Virus record (IMG/VR): IMGVR_UViG_3300028957_000063
Location: 1 to 8,511 of that record
Origin: a virus
Taxonomy: Duplodnaviria; Heunggongvirae; Uroviricota; Caudoviricetes
Direction: 5' to 3' (one strand)
DNA length: 8,511 bases
Shown here one piece after another: positions 1,641 to 7,661 of this stretch. The stretch's first letter is position 1, and each line of letters begins with the position of its first letter. The notes under the pieces were generated by a model that saw nothing but the letters and a program-made list of their open reading frames with translations, was not told where the DNA came from and made no database searches. Made by a program: the position numbers and the translations under genes.

Positions 1641-4016
1641 TTAAGAATCAGCCTGACTCGGGATCAGTTTTTGCCAGATAACTGAAACGTATTTTGCCTG
1701 GTAACGGGCGTCATCAAGTGCATTATGGCGCTCACCTTCGAATGGAATAGCCGTTCTGGCATCGAAGTCTATGGCTTTCCCCAGCTCAACGATTGTGCGT
1801 ACATCGCGATCGTTGTAGTAACGCCACGGGCAGGGGATCCCCTGCCGTTCGTATGAACGGCGCAAAATCGTGTTGTCGAAGTTGGCTCCATTTCCCCAGA
1901 CCTGAACAAAAAATTCACCGGAGTTTTCGTCGATAAATTCCCGCAATTGTAACAGTGCATCATCTAACGGGATTTCATCGGTCATAATGGCAGATTGCGC
2001 TTCGCGTGATTGCTTAAGCCACCATTTAATGGTGTCCCGATCAATGACTCCGCCAGCAGTTTCCAGATCGATAGTCTTACTAAATTCCGGTCCCATATCT
2101 CCGGTTTGCGGATCGAAAAATATTGCACCTATTGAGATGATCGGGGCATCAGGATTTTTTCCCATGGTTTCAAGGTCGATCATTAGATGGTCACACGTCC
2201 TGCTGGTGGATGTGATTTCGTGATGACCGTTCACCGCAATTAAGGGATCTGCCGTCTCGCCAGTTTCATTATCGCTATTGTGATGCTGATTGCCGCCAGT
2301 GTTCTCCTTGTGTGGATGTTCAGCGCCTTCCATTTCCTCCGGATCATTTTCCTGAACTTCAACCTGATTCTCTTCATTGAATGTTTCCTGGTATGTTGCG
2401 TCGCCCATCACCGCGCCACAATCAGGGCAGTTGCCGCCACCGCTCTGACCGCAGGCGGTGCAGACTTTTTCCGTTTCTTGTTGGTTCTGGTTCACTGAAT
2501 CGCGGATTTCAATCCCCTTCACCCATTTCGGATCATTCGGGTCGCTAATTCCTGCAACAAATTCACCGCGAGAGGCCGCAAGCAACTTATCGGCGTCAGG
2601 CTGGCTGATATTGGCTGCCTGCATAATTTTGTTTACTTCGTCAGCGGTAACTTTTACCGGCTCTGGTTGTGCGGTCGTGTCAGATGCACCAGTATTTTGT
2701 TGTGAACCTGAGTACGTGCCGTTTTTACGTGCGAAGTATTCCTCTTTTGTGATTTCCGTAGCTCCCAAGGCCAGTGCTTTTTCCAGACCAGAAAGTTTGT
2801 TTGCGCGACCGTATTTTTCGCCGTCCTTATCGGTGAAAAGGAAATAGAACGGCCCCTCTCGTTCTACAGATGATTCGGCTTCCACTTCGCATTCGGTTTT
2901 TTCGTTGTTCGGCATTGCCGTTTCCACTGCATCAGCTTCTGGTACTGGCGACGGGAGAGTATCAGTTGCGCTCTGATTTGTTCCTTCATCTTCAAACACG
3001 CCCTTTGTAGTCAGGTATTCAGTGATGTATTTGTTCAGCGCCACAGGATCTTTGTGAATGTCGATCGGACGTTCACGAACGAGGCCGAAAATAGTCTGGC
3101 AGCTGTAGTGAAGCGCATCAGGCTGTTTGCGCATTGATGCGGAGATGCGCTTCCAGTCTTCGCGATCCTTGTCGATAACTTCATTTTTTGCCCAGCGATG
3201 GATGCTGCCGTCAATGTTTCCTGCATCAATATCACCAGGCCAGAGAGCGCAGGCCAGTTCTTCATCCAGTGTTTTCCATGTCTGCTTGTATTCGCGACGA
3301 ATGGCGGCAGTGGCGGGGTTGATTTTTCCTGCTGAGTTTTCAGTGTGCTGCCGGTTGACTCTGGCGCGGGCAAGATCAACAACAGACGTGTATTTCCCGG
3401 TTTCTTTGCGTTCGGCTTCGCGACGTTTTTTCCAGGTGCGTAATTCTGTCTGGATCTCAGGCCATTTTGCACCCGGCTTACATTTATGTTTAACCCACCC
3501 GATGGCGAGCAGTTTTAGTTCTGAATACATGACGTTAACTTCAGGCATTTTCATCAATGCCTCAACGATATGCCCGTCGAATGTTGCCATGTCCTCCTGC
3601 AACAATTCCTGTGCACTAATCACCATATCAACGGTGATGTTTTCACATGTACCGAACTTAACCAGGACCGCGTTCTGTACTTCAAGGGACAGCTTGTCAA
3701 AATTGACGTTCATCGGATCGGATTCTGGTTCGACCGGAACAAAGGAAGCGCCTTCCTCATCCCAGCGGTTTTCCAGCATATATTCGGTATCCCAGGAGTC
3801 GATGGCAGGGCGGGGCATGCCGGGTTTATCCTCGCAGACAAGAAATTTATAAGCGCAGTCCTGAGCAGCCGGATATTGCTCCAGGAATTGCCAGGTAAAT
3901 TTGGCACGGGCGCGGCGTTCGTCGCCGGCTTCAATGGCAGTGGCTACAGCGACTGCACCTTCTTCCTTTATTGCCTGTTCGTCCGGAATGGCGGCGCAAA
4001 TAAAGACTTTACTCAT
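1641..4016 (-). CDS. Large prophage protein (791 aa) with a C-terminal DnaQ-like DEDDh 3'-5' exonuclease domain, a CxxC-x10-CxxC zinc-ribbon motif and an acidic linker. Proteins of this kind are often annotated exodeoxyribonuclease VIII-like.
   Basis: Uninterrupted 2376-nt ORF. Exonuclease motifs read in the translation: MIDLETMG (D-x-E, encoded from 2183 downward), WGNGANFD and HNALDDA (H-x4-D). Cys cluster VCTACGQSGGGNCPDCG is encoded at about 2400-2462. Occupies the position of the recombination module (exo/bet or recE) in lambdoid prophages. Confidence 0.8.
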   Translation of the reverse strand: MSKVFICAAIPDEQAIKEEGAVAVATAIEAGDERRARAKFTWQFLEQYPAAQDCAYKFLVCEDKPGMPRPAIDSWDTEYMLENRWDEEGASFVPVEPESDPMNVNFDKLSLEVQNAVLVKFGTCENITVDMVISAQELLQEDMATFDGHIVEALMKMPEVNVMYSELKLLAIGWVKHKCKPGAKWPEIQTELRTWKKRREAERKETGKYTSVVDLARARVNRQHTENSAGKINPATAAIRREYKQTWKTLDEELACALWPGDIDAGNIDGSIHRWAKNEVIDKDREDWKRISASMRKQPDALHYSCQTIFGLVRERPIDIHKDPVALNKYITEYLTTKGVFEDEGTNQSATDTLPSPVPEADAVETAMPNNEKTECEVEAESSVEREGPFYFLFTDKDGEKYGRANKLSGLEKALALGATEITKEEYFARKNGTYSGSQQNTGASDTTAQPEPVKVTADEVNKIMQAANISQPDADKLLAASRGEFVAGISDPNDPKWVKGIEIRDSVNQNQQETEKVCTACGQSGGGNCPDCGAVMGDATYQETFNEENQVEVQENDPEEMEGAEHPHKENTGGNQHHNSDNETGETADPLIAVNGHHEITSTSRTCDHLMIDLETMGKNPDAPIISIGAIFFDPQTGDMGPEFSKTIDLETAGGVIDRDTIKWWLKQSREAQSAIMTDEIPLDDALLQLREFIDENSGEFFVQVWGNGANFDNTILRRSYERQGIPCPWRYYNDRDVRTIVELGKAIDFDARTAIPFEGERHNALDDARYQAKYVSVIWQKLIPSQADS

Positions 4017-4302: not shown

Positions 4303-4485
4303 TCAGCGTCCTTTTTGCATCAGGCGTAAACGGGCCAGCATTGAAACAATGCATATTTGATTTAATAGCTCCCGTTCGTGTTTTCTCTTATTAATGGCAT
4401 CTTCAGTAAATACAGGGTTACTGATTCTGACACCAATTTCAAAACAACCTTCAGACGTATTGACGTTTGGTAATAACGTTTCCAT
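4303..4485 (-). CDS. Hypothetical small protein (60 aa)
   Basis: ATG at 4483-4485 with a GAGGA Shine-Dalgarno sequence about 7 nt upstream. Co-oriented with and tightly coupled to the next small ORF. No family recognised. Confidence 0.5.
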   Translation of the reverse strand: METLLPNVNTSEGCFEIGVRISNPVFTEDAINKRKHERELLNQICIVSMLARLRLMQKGR

Positions 4486-4502: not shown

Positions 4503-4662
4503 TGAATTTTGTGATGCGGTGCCTGGTGCCTCCAGGTGACGTTAACCAGTTAACAATTAACGCCGGATACAGGGAAACCCATAAACACCCGATACGGGGG
4601 AACTAATCGCTTTTTAACTGTTCCGCGTGCGCTGAGCCGCATTCACCGCATCACAAAATTCA
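4503..4662. repeat. Perfect 19-bp inverted repeat pair flanking a 122-bp core
   Basis: TGAATTTTGTGATGCGGTG at 4503-4521 is the exact reverse complement of 4644-4662. The core contains hairpin CCTGG-TGCCT-CCAGG (4522-4536) and three closely spaced TTAAC/GTTAAC copies (4550-4570). Confidence 0.7.
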
Positions 4663-4712: not shown

Positions 4713-5052
4713 AAAAGGTAATCAACATGGGTTGTTGTAGCGGGGTTGTCACTCAGGCGTATGGTCAACCTGACAACCCGGTGCCACCAATGGGGGTAAG
4801 GAATAACCCCGCCATACTTACCGCCGCGCCATTTCGCGGATTGCCACAACCGGAAGCGCACGGTCGACGAAAATTTAACGACAGGCTATCTATGAACCAG
4901 CTACCTCGCCGTGCGCTTTCGCGTTATGCCCTGACTTTTCAGGGATATATCCTTTCAGTAAACTGTCAGTGCCGGATGTTCACCCGTGTCCGGCGCACGC
5001 ACTCCACTTCACCCGTGGAGAACTCCTTAATTACCAACCCTCAGGAGGGTGA

Positions 5053-5286
5053 ATGTTAAAATCAACTCTTATTGCTAAATGCCTTTATCAAAATCGCATG
5101 GTAAGCAGCATTTCAATAGGCGAGTCTGCAGTTAAAAGTATTTTCGAAGAGTACTTTCCCGGGCATGATTTTAATAAATGGAATACCAAATTACCGCCAG
5201 CAGTTTCAACGCGTATTCTGAAAGCAACTGAAAGAGCAAGTACAATTCGCGTTAACTATTTCATTAAAGATTTGTGGGATCTTTGA
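5053..5286 (+). CDS. Hypothetical small protein (77 aa), encoded opposite to the surrounding leftward operon
   Basis: Strong Shine-Dalgarno AGGAGG 4-5 nt upstream of ATG 5053. AT-rich codon usage unlike the flanking DNA (by eye). Its 3' end overlaps the convergent 135-aa ORF by 23 nt. No family recognised. Confidence 0.45.
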   Translation: MLKSTLIAKCLYQNRMVSSISIGESAVKSIFEEYFPGHDFNKWNTKLPPAVSTRILKATERASTIRVNYFIKDLWDL

Positions 5287-5693: not shown

Positions 5694-5912
5694 TTAACGT
5701 GGGTATGTAATCATTCTTGCAATGCTTAATGCCGCTGCTTTTTCCAGCCTGGTGATATCCTGCTCCAGAGCGGACAGATTTTCAGCCTGCTTAGCCCTGG
5801 CTTCATTGGCCCATTTCAGATCCTGCGCTGCATTAATTTTCTGGCGCATCCACTCATAAAGTTCATCATCGGTATAGTCTGGCGCGATGATGACGGGTTC
5901 TCGTTTCTGCAT
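5694..5912 (-). CDS. Hypothetical small protein (72 aa)
   Basis: ATG at 5910-5912 preceded by GAGGAA. An in-frame TAA lies just upstream at the gap edge, so it is an independent ORF and not a continuation of the gene broken by the N-run. Confidence 0.55.
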   Translation of the reverse strand: MQKREPVIIAPDYTDDELYEWMRQKINAAQDLKWANEARAKQAENLSALEQDITRLEKAAALSIARMITYPR

Positions 5913-5952
5913 ACTGATTCCTCGCGGTGCTGCTTCGCTTATCAGGCGTTAG

Positions 5953-5987
5953 NNNNNNNNNNNNNNNNNNNNNNNNNNNNNNNNNNN
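5953..5987. other. Run of 35 ambiguous bases (N): assembly gap or masked segment of unknown true length
   Basis: Directly visible in the sequence. Confidence 0.99.
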
Positions 5988-6054
5988 CTTCGCCTTCGGC
6001 AAGGCCTTCGAAGTATTCTTCGTAAGCCTTTTCCATGATTGTGTCGAAATCCAT
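5988..6054 (-). CDS. 5' fragment of a small prophage gene (MDFDTIMEKAYEEYFEGLAEGE...) truncated by the N-run. Possibly a YdaF/DUF1391-like protein, but this is very uncertain.
   Basis: ATG at 6052-6054 with AGGTGA upstream. The preceding gene's TGA ends 1 nt before this ATG. The reading frame runs into the 5953-5987 N-run, so the 3' end is unknown. Confidence 0.35.
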
Positions 6055-6055
6055 A

Positions 6056-6211
6056 TCACTCACCTGAGTTTCTTTCCAGCCAGCGACGGGCACCATTTTC
6101 GGTTTTAAACGTTTTGCTTTTGGTATACGTCATCGCGGTGAATGTGCCGTCCTGGTTGGGAAACACGCCGTACACCAGAGATTCGTTGTTGCCAAGATCG
6201 ATAGTATCCAT
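6056..6211 (-). CDS. Small prophage protein (51 aa, MDTIDLGNNESLVYGVFPNQDGTF...), possibly YdaG-like
   Basis: ATG at 6209-6211 with GAGGT 5 nt upstream. It is the first gene downstream of the putative leftward promoter region. The longer ORF-track start at 6265 has no Shine-Dalgarno sequence. The family guess is from memory only. Confidence 0.5.
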   Translation of the reverse strand: MDTIDLGNNESLVYGVFPNQDGTFTAMTYTKSKTFKTENGARRWLERNSGE

Positions 6212-6414: not shown

Positions 6415-6822
6415 TTATTTGTTTGCGCTTCTTTTGCGAGCTTTGAGTAGTTCTTCAAAAAGTTTGTTGAAATTTTCAACTCGAGCACGCATCTCTGACA
6501 ACAGGGCCTTTTGCTCTGACTCAGGCAGTGCGTCGAACAGTTGAAGTAACTCTTTTTGATCTTCTGTCAGAATGGCTGGTTGATTATCCGGGAGCGGTTC
6601 GCCTGGTTGTTTATCTTCATCCCCAAAAAGAAGCCAAGTCGGTGAGCACTGAAGCGCTTGGCTCAGTGCGAATAATCTTTTCCCCGCCGGCTGTGTTTCA
6701 TCTCTTTCCCATTGAGAAATTGTTACGTGAGCCACTTTGACCAGCTTACCTAATGCGGCCTGAGACAGTTTTAATTTTTTACGCCTATGTAAGAGGCGAG
6801 CACCGAAGGTTTCGTTTTTCAT
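6415..6822 (-). CDS. dicA: Prophage repressor, HTH XRE-family, DicA-like (cI analogue), 135 aa
   Basis: N-terminal HTH (LSQAALGKLVKVAHVTISQWER). Strong resemblance from memory to E. coli DicA (blocks such as LFALS..LQCSPTWxLFGDEDKQP and EMRARVxNFNKLFEELLKAR). Divergently arranged with a Cro/DicC-like gene. Confidence 0.85.
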   Translation of the reverse strand: MKNETFGARLLHRRKKLKLSQAALGKLVKVAHVTISQWERDETQPAGKRLFALSQALQCSPTWLLFGDEDKQPGEPLPDNQPAILTEDQKELLQLFDALPESEQKALLSEMRARVENFNKLFEELLKARKRSANK

Positions 6823-6898: not shown

Positions 6899-7126
6899 AT
6901 GTTGAAAATTGATGCTATAGCGTTTTTTGGCAGCAAAACAAAGCTTGCCAATGCCGCAGGAGTTAGGCTGGCAAGCATTGCTGCATGGGGGGAACTGGTT
7001 CCTGAAGGTCGCGCGATGCGCCTGCAAGAGGCATCCGGCGGGGAACTTCAGTACGACCCTAAAGTTTATGACGAATATCGTAAGGCAAAGCGGGCGGGGC
7101 GGTTGAACAATGAAAATCACCCCTGA
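6899..7126 (+). CDS. dicC: Cro-like regulator, DicC/YdaS-like (75 aa)
   Basis: Small ORF divergent from the DicA-like repressor with a strong AAGGAG Shine-Dalgarno sequence. Translation resembles DicC from memory (FGSKTKLA..AG.RLAS...LVPEGRAMRLQEASGGELQYDP...). Confidence 0.8.
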   Translation: MLKIDAIAFFGSKTKLANAAGVRLASIAAWGELVPEGRAMRLQEASGGELQYDPKVYDEYRKAKRAGRLNNENHP

Positions 7127-7661
7127 ACAGGTTTGTGAGGCTCTGGATGCCTGGGTATGCCGACCAGGAATGACACAGGAGCAGGCGACGATATTAATCA
7201 CGGAAGCATTCTGGGCTCTGAAAGAACGCCCGAACATTGATGTTCAACGCGTCACGTTTGATGATGGCGCGGTTGATCAACGGGCACTGGGCGTTAACCG
7301 GGTGAAGATATTCGAACGCTGGAAAGCTATCGACACCAGGGATAAGCGTGAAAAATTCACGGCGCTGATTCCGGCAATTATGGAGGCTATCCGGATCAGC
7401 GATTTCAGGTTGTATTGTGAAATTACTGACGGAAAAAGCATTACGTACATGATCGCCGGGTTAAACAAAGAATATGGCGATGTGGTGGAGTCCGGGCTGC
7501 TTTTTGCGGATCCAGCTGTTGTGGAGCGTGAGACTGACGAGCTTATAGAAAAAGCTATTGCTTTCAAGCATGCGTATCGTCAGCAATACCAACATTACTT
7601 TGCAGATAAACAAATATCTGTCTGGGGTTCGTATGAGTATCGATGCACTACGATGGGCTAA
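7110..7661 (+). CDS. Prophage early regulatory protein at the cII position (183 aa), possibly CII(CP76)-like or YdaT-like
   Basis: ORF starts inside the last codons of the cro-like gene (17-nt overlap, different frame) and ends at TAA 7659-7661. Family assignment is from position and size only. Confidence 0.6.
   Translation: MKITPEQVCEALDAWVCRPGMTQEQATILITEAFWALKERPNIDVQRVTFDDGAVDQRALGVNRVKIFERWKAIDTRDKREKFTALIPAIMEAIRISDFRLYCEITDGKSITYMIAGLNKEYGDVVESGLLFADPAVVERETDELIEKAIAFKHAYRQQYQHYFADKQISVWGSYEYRCTTMG

What the first reader, a model, noticed from the sequence alone, without database searches (positions are those of the whole stretch)
1641..4016. 791-aa protein combining a DEDDh 3'-5' exonuclease, a zinc ribbon, an acidic linker and a large unassigned N-terminal region
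The gene sits where lambdoid phages keep exo/bet or recE/recT. The canonical partners are a 5'-3' exonuclease and an annealase. This protein instead ends in a DnaQ-like 3'-5' exonuclease fold with clear DxE, NxxD and H-x4-D motifs. It is preceded by a CxxC-x10-CxxC motif and a highly acidic stretch, and about 500 N-terminal residues have no assignment I can make. No separate annealase gene is visible in the window. The N-terminal region may carry annealase or other activity.
Basis: partly seen in the sequence, partly recalled or inferred. Interest (0 to 1): 0.5.

Follow-up and report, generated by a model that had tools for sequence, protein, structure and literature searches.

The report
RecE-like scaffold carrying 3'-5' exonuclease
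This is the intact form of the E. coli prophage gene ydfE: a RecE-like scaffold protein whose usual 5'-3' nuclease end has been swapped for a DexA/DnaQ-type 3'-5' exonuclease. It is very common, already annotated and biochemically unstudied, and it does not hide an annealase.

Summary
The 791-aa ORF at 1641-4016 (-) is real and intact. Its C-terminus (aa 610-781) is a clear DEDDh exonuclease of Pfam family Rv2179c-like (E=2e-67). The catalytic residues D614, E616, D714, H764 and D769 are all present.

The first ~600 residues can be assigned:
- aa 1-255 are 87% identical to the IS2-truncated K-12 Qin pseudogene ydfE (Pfam YdfE_N/YdfE_C).
- aa 262-593 are homologous to the non-catalytic part of Rac RecE. 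A ~370-bp stretch covering the zinc ribbon and acidic linker is ~88-90% identical to recE at DNA level, and the similarity ends just before the nuclease.

Across 56 long representatives of the family, two alternative heads combine with four alternative tails: DEDDh exonuclease, RecE PD-(D/E)XK nuclease, a Rad52-fold annealase (Foldseek E=6e-7) and an unknown tail. The annealase therefore replaces the exonuclease in the same slot in relatives. It is not hidden in the N-terminus, which matches no annealase by profile or fold.

The gene is present at >=80% coverage in 3489 of 5426 complete E. coli genomes, annotated "exonuclease" or "3'-5' exoribonuclease". I found no biochemical study of it. Its most likely role is tethered 3'-end trimming during lytic growth, but that is inferred. 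Interest is modest.

The parts
1641..4016 (-). Complete ORF of 791 aa plus stop codon: the intact ydfE-family gene (RecE-like scaffold plus DEDDh exonuclease).
   Evidence: ORF list. Public proteins of 791 aa are 99-100% identical. phrog_2082 'exonuclease' matches at E=0.
3399..4016 (-). YdfE-type head, aa 1-206: an alpha/beta domain (aa 1-~100) followed by a helical domain (aa ~105-206).
   Evidence: 87% identity to the K-12 Qin pseudogene ydfE over aa 1-255. Precomputed Pfam YdfE_N/YdfE_C on near-identical proteins. AF2 pLDDT is 84-94 except one 10-residue block at 69 (aa 91-100). No informative PDB fold match.
2988..3305 (-). Shared helical module, aa 238-343. This is the most widely conserved part of the family and is also present in Rac, Gifsy, HK225 and Klebsiella RecE proteins.
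   Evidence: BLASTP to RecE. tblastn of aa 1-380 against phages. Module census. AF2 pLDDT 80-92 for aa 241-340.
2865..2987 (-). Disordered acidic linker 1, aa 344-384.
   Evidence: pLDDT below 50. 10 D/E against 1 K/R.
2712..2864 (-). Small beta-hairpin/helix module, aa 385-435 (GPFYF...GRANK...EITKEEYxARKNGT). Optional within the family.
   Evidence: G388 P389 F390 Y391 R404 A405 N406 K407 are invariant across 63 sequences. pLDDT 80-90 for aa 391-430. Present in only some relatives.
2238..2609 (-). Mosaic segment shared with Rac recE, aa 470-593: the LAASRGEFVxGISDPNDPKW motif, the zinc ribbon and acidic linker 2.
   Evidence: About 85% amino-acid identity to RecE 450-591. About 88-90% DNA identity, with abrupt loss of similarity on both sides.
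2418..2462 (-). Zinc ribbon CTAC-x7-CPDC, aa 519-533.
   Evidence: Sequence. The four Cys are invariant in the alignment with RecE and E. coli variants. Weak Pfam DZR and DUF2321 hits.
2238..2408 (-). Acidic linker 2, aa 537-593 (16 D/E, 1 K/R).
   Evidence: Composition. Shared with RecE up to the junction with the nuclease domain.
1674..2189 (-). DEDDh 3'-5' exonuclease domain, aa 610-781 (Pfam Rv2179c-like; the family that also holds T4 DexA).
   Evidence: Pfam E=2.2e-67. PDB chain 8KEL at E=1.3e-6. PADLOC DEDDh model at E=1.5e-5. Alignment with RB59 (T4-type) DexA.
2169..2177 (-). ExoI motif D614-L-E616.
   Evidence: Aligns to DexA D7/E9.
1875..1877 (-). ExoII catalytic Asp D714, within NGANFD.
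   Evidence: Aligns to DexA D119.
1710..1727 (-). ExoIII motif H764-NALD-D769 (the DEDDh His and final Asp).
   Evidence: Sequence. Conserved in all DEDDh-tail relatives examined.

Best explanation
The gene is the intact version of E. coli ydfE. It is a beads-on-a-string protein of the RecE/YdfE family and a product of lambdoid mosaicism. Its non-catalytic scaffold consists of the YdfE head, a shared helical module, a small beta module, the LAASRGEF...DPNDPKW motif, a zinc ribbon and an acidic linker. Part of this scaffold is shared with Rac RecE. In the tail slot, where RecE has its PD-(D/E)XK 5'-3' nuclease and other relatives have a Rad52-fold annealase, this protein carries a DexA/Rv2179c-type DEDDh exonuclease.

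Shown here:
- the domain architecture;
- an intact catalytic pentad;
- the recombination junction after the acidic linker;
- the combinatorial use of heads and tails across the family;
- the absence of a partner annealase or Gam gene.

Inferred:
- The tail is an active metal-dependent 3'->5' exonuclease.
- Its substrate is more likely DNA 3' ends than RNA.
- The scaffold tethers or targets it, to DNA ends or to a host factor, in the way the RecE N-terminus modulates end-to-end recombination.
- It is made from the pL early-left transcript during induction or lytic growth.
- It trims 3' tails on phage or host DNA ends in phages that have no Rec module of their own and depend on host recombination. 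It is not one half of an exonuclease/annealase pair.
For: Architecture:
- Pfam Rv2179c-like on aa 610-781, E=2e-67.
- The NCBIfam RecE model matches only aa 219-594.
- BLASTP to K-12 RecE covers aa 262-593, and similarity ends at the RecE nuclease boundary.
- DNA identity to recE is ~88-90% over ~370 bp with sharp borders.
- 87% identity to K-12 YdfE.
- YdfE_N, YdfE_C and Rv2179c-like are precomputed on homologues.

Catalytic residues: they align with those of T4-type DexA and are conserved in relatives.

Modularity: among 56 family representatives of >=450 aa, both heads occur with all four tails: DEDDh, PD-(D/E)XK, Rad52-like and CANPA. The Rad52 assignment rests on an AF2 model (pLDDT 85) whose top nine Foldseek PDB hits are all human RAD52, E=6e-7 to 1e-5.

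Substrate: PF16473 contains a DNA exonuclease as well as the RNase it is named after. T4-type DexA scores E=2.4e-22, and DexA and EcD act on DNA (PMC12153337).

Context:
- Same slot as recET, next to xis-int.
- No annealase or Gam gene in the window, in the Qin-site prophages, or in the complete phage PhiR42_1.
- The gene is intact in 3489 of 5426 complete E. coli genomes.
- No promoter-like site was found in front of the gene.

Literature:
- The RecE N-terminus is 'of unknown function' but enhances linear-linear recombination (PMC11611040).
- DnaQ-type nucleases near int in lambdoid phages lacking Rec modules have been noted (PMC12315714).
Against: - No activity, polarity or substrate has been measured for this protein or for any full-length relative that I could find.
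- The family name and RefSeq product name say exoribonuclease.
- 3'-5' exonucleases generally antagonise rather than promote recombination, as PMC12315714 itself notes. A pro-recombination role is therefore not obvious.
- The scaffold has no recognisable DNA-binding or partner-binding fold.
- One relative, P0264, has lost two catalytic residues. The tail may therefore sometimes act non-catalytically.
- The promoter scan is a crude consensus test and cannot exclude expression in lysogens.
Confidence: 0.5

Rival explanations
1. Prophage-encoded defence. The DEDDh tail acts like the E. coli DexA homologue EcD ('HREX') and destroys incoming phage DNA that carries modified cytosines, protecting the lysogen against T-even phages.
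For: - A 2025 NAR paper reports that a standalone E. coli DexA homologue (EcD) digests 5hmC-DNA but not unmodified DNA and protects against T4. It also reports that DexA homologues are most common in Escherichia and absent from K-12 (PMC12153337). That fits the fact that K-12 has only the truncated ydfE.
- The window's domain is in the same Pfam family as DexA.
- It lacks DexA's extra loops, as the paper describes for EcD.
Against: - EcD is a different protein. Its cloning primers encode MIDTET... and ...TIPETYD, whereas this domain runs HLMIDLETMG...KLIPSQADS.
- DexA's 5hmC-reading W152 aligns to Tyr734 here. DexA D169 lies in an insertion that this domain lacks.
- The gene lies in the pL early-left operon with no promoter-like site of its own, so it should be silent in a lysogen, as Rac recET is.
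- PADLOC matches only a generic CRISPR-associated DEDDh model.
Confidence: 0.15
2. It is an exoribonuclease, as the Pfam and RefSeq names say. It trims or degrades RNA 3' ends (host or phage transcripts, sRNAs, primers) during the lytic programme.
For: - The best Pfam match is the family named after M. tuberculosis Rv2179c, described as a 3'-5' exoribonuclease.
- RefSeq names many copies '3'-5' exoribonuclease'.
- The weaker RNase_T Pfam hit, E=3.8e-4.
Against: - The same Pfam family holds DexA, a DNA exonuclease, so the name does not fix the substrate.
- The tail is interchangeable with two DNA-recombination modules, the RecE nuclease and a Rad52-fold annealase, on a scaffold shared with a dsDNA exonuclease. 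That points to DNA ends.
Confidence: 0.15
3. One reading: the unassigned N-terminal region is a cryptic annealase, so the protein is a single-chain exonuclease-plus-annealase recombinase.
For: No separate annealase gene is present in the window or in a complete relative phage. The N-terminal domains have no known function.
Against: - No profile match to RecT, Redbeta, ERF, Rad52 or Sak families.
- The same head is fused to a dedicated Rad52-fold annealase in at least 17 cluster representatives, which would make a second annealase redundant.
- A 3'-5' exonuclease would destroy the 3' tails that annealases use.
Confidence: 0.04
4. It is a decaying prophage remnant with no current function.
For: It lies in Qin/Rac-type prophages that are often defective, and the K-12 copy is an IS2-disrupted pseudogene.
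Against: - The reading frame is intact over 791 aa with all catalytic residues.
- Full-length copies are present in 3489 complete genomes and in viable isolated phages such as PhiR42_1, mEp460, Tritos and HannyBb.
Confidence: 0.04

Closest known systems
RecE (exonuclease VIII) of the Rac prophage
   Same: [quoted passage not shown]
- Homologous non-catalytic region: aa 262-593 here against RecE 278-591.
- Near-identical LAASRGEF...DPNDPKW motif, zinc ribbon and acidic linker.
   Different: - The head differs: YdfE type here instead of Pfam Exonuc_VIII.
- The C-terminal PD-(D/E)XK 5'-3' nuclease (DUF3799) is replaced by a DEDDh 3'-5' exonuclease.
- There is no adjacent recT.
- The NCBIfam RecE model scores 238 bits against a cut-off of 1269.
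YdfE of the E. coli K-12 Qin prophage (Pfam YdfE_N / YdfE_C)
   Same: 87% identical over aa 1-255, with the same neighbours (dicB, ydfD upstream; int downstream).
   Different: K-12 ydfE is a pseudogene cut by IS2 after ~255 codons. The window holds the complete 791-aa gene.
T4 DexA (PDB 8KEL) and the E. coli homologue EcD; M. tuberculosis Rv2179c
   Same: Same Pfam family (PF16473) and the same DEDDh catalytic residues.
   Different: - Those are standalone proteins of ~170-230 aa. Here the domain is the tail of a ~600-aa scaffold.
- Only ~28% identical to DexA.
- Lacks DexA's insertions, including the one holding D169, and has Tyr in place of W152.
- EcD's ends differ.
YdfE/RecE-scaffold proteins with a Rad52-fold tail (e.g. 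P0128 from Klebsiella prophages, annotated 'exodeoxyribonuclease VIII')
   Same: Same scaffold: 44% identity over aa 27-438, and the same YdfE_N/YdfE_C Pfam pair. Same position next to xis-int.
   Different: The tail is a Rad52-like annealase domain followed by a long helical region, not a nuclease. The gene follows a Gam-like gene, i.e. it sits in a recognisable Rec module.

Membership tests
DEDDh (DnaQ-like) 3'-5' exonucleases, Pfam PF16473 Rv2179c-like | Profile score above the curated cut-off | tested here: met
   226.6 bits against a cut-off of 27, aa 610-781 covering profile positions 2-177 of 177.
DEDDh (DnaQ-like) 3'-5' exonucleases, Pfam PF16473 Rv2179c-like | ExoI D-x-E, ExoII N-x3-F-D and ExoIII H-x4-D with all five catalytic residues | tested here: met
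   D614, E616, D714, H764 and D769. D614, E616 and D714 align to DexA D7, E9 and D119 in the MAFFT alignment. MAFFT offsets the ExoIII motif by four residues; H764 and D769 correspond to DexA H186 and D191 by motif.
DEDDh (DnaQ-like) 3'-5' exonucleases, Pfam PF16473 Rv2179c-like | Metal-dependent 3'->5' exonuclease activity | not testable with these tools
   Needs a biochemical assay.
RecE / exodeoxyribonuclease VIII (NCBIfam NF007259 equivalog) | Full-length match above the curated cut-off | tested here: not met
   237.8 bits against a cut-off of 1269. Only aa 219-594 match, to profile positions 243-603 of 877.
RecE / exodeoxyribonuclease VIII (NCBIfam NF007259 equivalog) | C-terminal PD-(D/E)XK 5'-3' nuclease domain (Pfam DUF3799) | tested here: not met
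   Absent here. Present in K-12 RecE at aa 615-850.
RecE / exodeoxyribonuclease VIII (NCBIfam NF007259 equivalog) | Adjacent recT annealase gene | tested here: not met
   The gene is followed directly by xis and int. No RecT-like ORF in the window. Compare Rac.
RecE / exodeoxyribonuclease VIII (NCBIfam NF007259 equivalog) | Shared central region with zinc ribbon and acidic linker | tested here: met
   BLASTP E=6e-56. About 85% identity over aa 470-593.
YdfE family (Pfam PF27430 YdfE_N, PF27432 YdfE_C) | Homology to E. coli K-12 YdfE and the two Pfam domains | tested here: met
   87% identity to K-12 YdfE over 255 aa. Both Pfam domains are precomputed on the 100%-identical protein P0001 and its relatives. 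These models are not in the local Pfam copy, so they were not rescored here.
Single-strand annealing proteins (RecT/Redbeta, ERF, Rad52/Sak, Sak4) | Profile or fold match of the N-terminal region to any annealase family | tested here: not met
   - No Pfam, NCBIfam or PHROG annealase hit.
- Foldseek against PDB: best E=0.57.
- Positive control: the relatives' tail domain did recover RAD52.
HREX / EcD-type 5hmC-specific exonuclease defence (PMC12153337) | Conserved Trp and acidic residue equivalent to DexA W152 and D169 | tested here: not met
   W152 aligns to Y734. D169 falls in a DexA insertion that is absent here. The alignment is at ~28% identity, so this is suggestive rather than decisive.
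HREX / EcD-type 5hmC-specific exonuclease defence (PMC12153337) | Selective digestion of 5hmC-DNA and protection against T4 | not testable with these tools
   Needs nuclease and plaque assays.

The most novel reading that the evidence does not exclude
The RecE/YdfE scaffold is a general delivery module for DNA-end effectors, and lambdoid phages swap its tail between a 5'-3' nuclease, a 3'-5' nuclease, a Rad52-type annealase and an unknown domain. On this reading the DEDDh version, the commonest form in E. coli, is an unstudied end-processing strategy of reversed polarity. It would let Rec-module-less phages steer host RecBCD/RecA recombination, for example by blunting 3' tails. The long-unexplained RecE N-terminus would be the part that finds the DNA end or the host partner.
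Probability: 0.3. Interest if true: 0.6.

Novelty: new variant of a known kind. Interest (0 to 1): 0.35.

Why it matters
- The roughly 600 non-catalytic residues of RecE have had no assigned function for decades, even though full-length RecE is the basis of linear-linear recombineering. The same scaffold carries four interchangeable tails, one of them an exonuclease of opposite polarity and one a Rad52-fold annealase. That argues the scaffold is a targeting or tethering device, and it suggests simple swap and pull-down experiments.
- The DEDDh form is present in about two thirds of complete E. coli genomes and is inconsistently labelled: exodeoxyribonuclease VIII, exonuclease, or 3'-5' exoribonuclease. 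Better annotation is therefore a practical gain.
- In itself the gene is common and already catalogued, so the surprise to a specialist is limited.

Tried and rejected

2. True RecE orthologue ('exodeoxyribonuclease VIII' as many records say): rejected. The NCBIfam score is far below cut-off, there is no PD-(D/E)XK domain and there is no recT.

3. Identity with the characterised E. coli exonuclease EcD: rejected. The cloning primers in the paper's supplement encode different termini.

4. Retrieving the EcD locus by primer-sequence scans failed. The 23-mer found nothing in genome contigs or viral contigs. The 17-mer gave only matches in unrelated, non-enterobacterial organisms (~70 random hits were expected).

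5. Sequence-level confirmation of the Rad52-like tail in relatives failed: Pfam, a phmmer search and a profile hmmsearch against PDB all found nothing. Only the structure route worked.

6. One literature search was wasted because 'RecE' matched 'receptor'. A search for ydfE found no functional study.

7. The exact 791-aa protein was not on record in the contig index, so the wider context was taken from the 823-aa form.

8. Rfam at gathering thresholds found nothing in the window.

9. PADLOC gave only a generic DEDDh match.
Full report
**Observation**

The window is the left arm of a lambdoid (Qin/PPompW-like) E. coli prophage. On the minus strand it carries, in order:
- integrase (2-1297);
- excisionase (1317-1568);
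- the 791-aa ORF (1641-4016);
- a YdfD-like DUF1482 protein;
- DicB (4303-4485);
- several small ORFs;
- a YdfA-like DUF1391 protein;
- a DicA/cI-like repressor (6415-6822).

Cro/DicC-like and cII-like genes lie on the plus strand.

The 791-aa ORF starts at an ATG preceded by a GAGG Shine-Dalgarno-like sequence. Public proteins of the same length are 99-100% identical to it.

- The DEDDh domain is unambiguous: Pfam PF16473 on aa 610-781, E=2.2e-67.
- ExoI is D614-x-E616. ExoII is N-x3-F-D714, not NxxD. ExoIII is H764-x4-D769.
- The zinc ribbon is CxxC-x7-CxxC at aa 519-533, not x10.
- aa 537-593 hold 16 acidic residues against 1 basic.

**What the N-terminal 600 residues are**

They can be assigned.
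- aa 1-255 are 87% identical to the E. coli K-12 Qin pseudogene ydfE, which IS2 cuts at that point. Near-identical proteins carry the recent Pfam families YdfE_N and YdfE_C.
- The NCBIfam RecE model matches aa 219-594 only.
- BLASTP against K-12 RecE aligns aa 262-593 with RecE 278-591. Identity rises to about 85% over the LAASRGEFVxGISDPNDPKW motif, the zinc ribbon and the acidic linker.
- At DNA level about 370 bp are ~88-90% identical to Rac recE. Similarity stops abruptly on both sides, and the downstream break falls exactly where the RecE nuclease domain begins.

This is a classic lambdoid mosaic joint. The two genes share a linker and differ in the catalytic cassette attached to it.

An AlphaFold2 model of aa 1-520 was built from 63 aligned sequences. 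Mean pLDDT is 74 and pTM is 0.29. It shows four confident domains joined by disordered linkers:
- an alpha/beta domain at aa 1-100;
- a helical domain at aa 105-206;
- a helical domain at aa 240-340;
- a small beta/helix domain at aa 385-435.

**The family is combinatorial**

A full HMMER scan of 1.84 billion cluster representatives with aa 1-600 found only 250 clusters at E<=1e-3, many of them fragments. I classified the 56 representatives of at least 450 aa with module seeds.
- Two alternative heads occur: the YdfE type, and the Rac RecE type (Pfam Exonuc_VIII).
- Four alternative tails occur: the DEDDh exonuclease; a PD-(D/E)XK RecE nuclease of Rac or Gifsy type (DUF3799); a ~285-aa domain with no Pfam match; and an unknown 'CANPA' tail.
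- Every head occurs with every tail.
- One representative, P0136, has the Rac RecE head at 100% identity joined to the DEDDh tail at 98% identity.

The ~285-aa tail was modelled at pLDDT 85. Its nine best Foldseek hits in PDB are all the human RAD52 N-terminal domain, E=6e-7 to 1e-5 at probability 1.00, and the next hit is at E=0.055. It is therefore a Rad52-fold annealase domain. In a Klebsiella prophage the gene carrying it follows a Gam-like gene and precedes xis-int.

In this family the annealase is an alternative occupant of the tail slot, not a hidden property of the head.

**How common and how well known**
- The gene matches at >=80% coverage in 3489 of 5426 complete E. coli genomes, usually as an 823-aa form. 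The window's form lacks a 32-aa low-complexity insert before the zinc ribbon.
- It also occurs in isolated phages: PPompW, Stx2a phages, PhiR42_1, mEp460, Tritos and HannyBb.
- Records label it 'exonuclease', '3'-5' exoribonuclease' or, wrongly, 'exodeoxyribonuclease VIII'.
- A 2025 survey of lambdoid recombination modules mentions DnaQ-type nucleases encoded near int outside recognisable Rec modules. It also mentions 'RecE-2' proteins that lack a nuclease domain, without further analysis (PMC12315714).
- I found no functional study of ydfE.

**Mechanism**

Shown: the tail has a complete DEDDh active site that aligns with T4-type DexA.

The Pfam family is named for an RNase, but DexA, a DNA exonuclease, belongs to it too at E=2.4e-22. 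The name therefore does not settle the substrate.

I favour DNA 3' ends as substrate, for two reasons:
- The tail is interchangeable with a dsDNA-end nuclease and an annealase on the same scaffold.
- The scaffold is shared with RecE.

The gene has no partner annealase or Gam gene in the window, in the Qin-site prophages or in the complete phage PhiR42_1. It has no promoter-like site of its own. I therefore infer expression from pL during induction, and a role in trimming 3' tails on DNA ends in phages that rely on host recombination. These steps are inference, and I put about 0.5 on the composite statement.

Rivals:
- Defence role like EcD/HREX (PMC12153337). EcD is a different, standalone protein. 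The 5hmC-reading residues are not conserved here. The operon position argues against expression in lysogens.
- RNA exonuclease.
- Cryptic annealase.
- Decaying remnant.

**Verdict**

The protein is best described as a RecE/YdfE-family scaffold with a swapped-in 3'-5' exonuclease. That makes it a variant of a known kind that is abundant and already annotated but biochemically unstudied. Interest is modest (0.35). The most useful by-product is the evidence that the RecE-type scaffold is a carrier for interchangeable DNA-end modules, including a previously mislabelled Rad52-fold annealase.

Noticed in passing
L003 5650-7986 (P0128) and relatives P0131, P0132, P0147, P0159, P0169, P0178, P0197, P0203, P0214, P0219, P0233, P0260, P0265, P0267: These proteins are widely annotated 'exodeoxyribonuclease VIII'. 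They carry the YdfE/RecE scaffold but no nuclease domain. Their C-terminal ~285 aa fold like the RAD52 annealase domain followed by long helices (Foldseek E=6e-7). In L003 the gene follows a Gam-like gene. They are probably the phage's annealase and are mis-annotated.
   Followed up: yes
Relatives P0125, P0224, P0244, P0248, P0251, P0151 (C-termini): A fourth tail module ends in a conserved '...QQLTIAALxGLCANPA...' motif. It has no Pfam or PDB match and hits only phrog_26058 (unknown function).
   Followed up: no
window 5953-5987: A run of 35 N (assembly gap or masked bases) lies inside the early-left operon. It interrupts the 76-aa ORF at 5866-6096.
   Followed up: no
window 4508-4660 (-): A sub-threshold Rfam match to the sRNA family STnc100 (34.3 bits against gathering score 47, E=1.5e-5) lies just upstream of dicB, where the K-12 Qin prophage has dicF. 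No DicF match was found.
   Followed up: partly
window 4727-5286 (+): Two overlapping plus-strand ORFs (110 and 77 aa) sit in a locally GC-richer patch (0.52 against ~0.40 in the flanks). They are antisense to the early-left operon and have no Pfam match. PhiR42_1 also has two plus-strand hypothetical genes at the equivalent place. This may be a moron cassette.
   Followed up: partly
window ~2460-2470 (between aa 515 and 516 of the ORF): The window's 791-aa form lacks a 32-aa Q/E/N-rich low-complexity insert (EQNDQKAEQN...) that the common 823-aa E. coli form has, and that RecE partly has, just before the zinc ribbon.
   Followed up: partly
Relative P0264 (752 aa): Its DEDDh tail has Lys for the ExoI Glu (DLKTMG) and Ala for the ExoII Asp (SFANVIL). 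It is probably a catalytically dead copy.
   Followed up: no
Relative P0231 (703 aa): This is an in-frame fusion of Rac RecE residues 1-~540 to the C-terminal part of RecT. It looks like a deletion joining recE and recT.
   Followed up: no
window 7110-7661 (+): The cII-like activator ORF (phrog_163) also gives a weak Pfam hit to YdaT_toxin (E=1e-5, 26.3 bits against cut-off 21).
   Followed up: no
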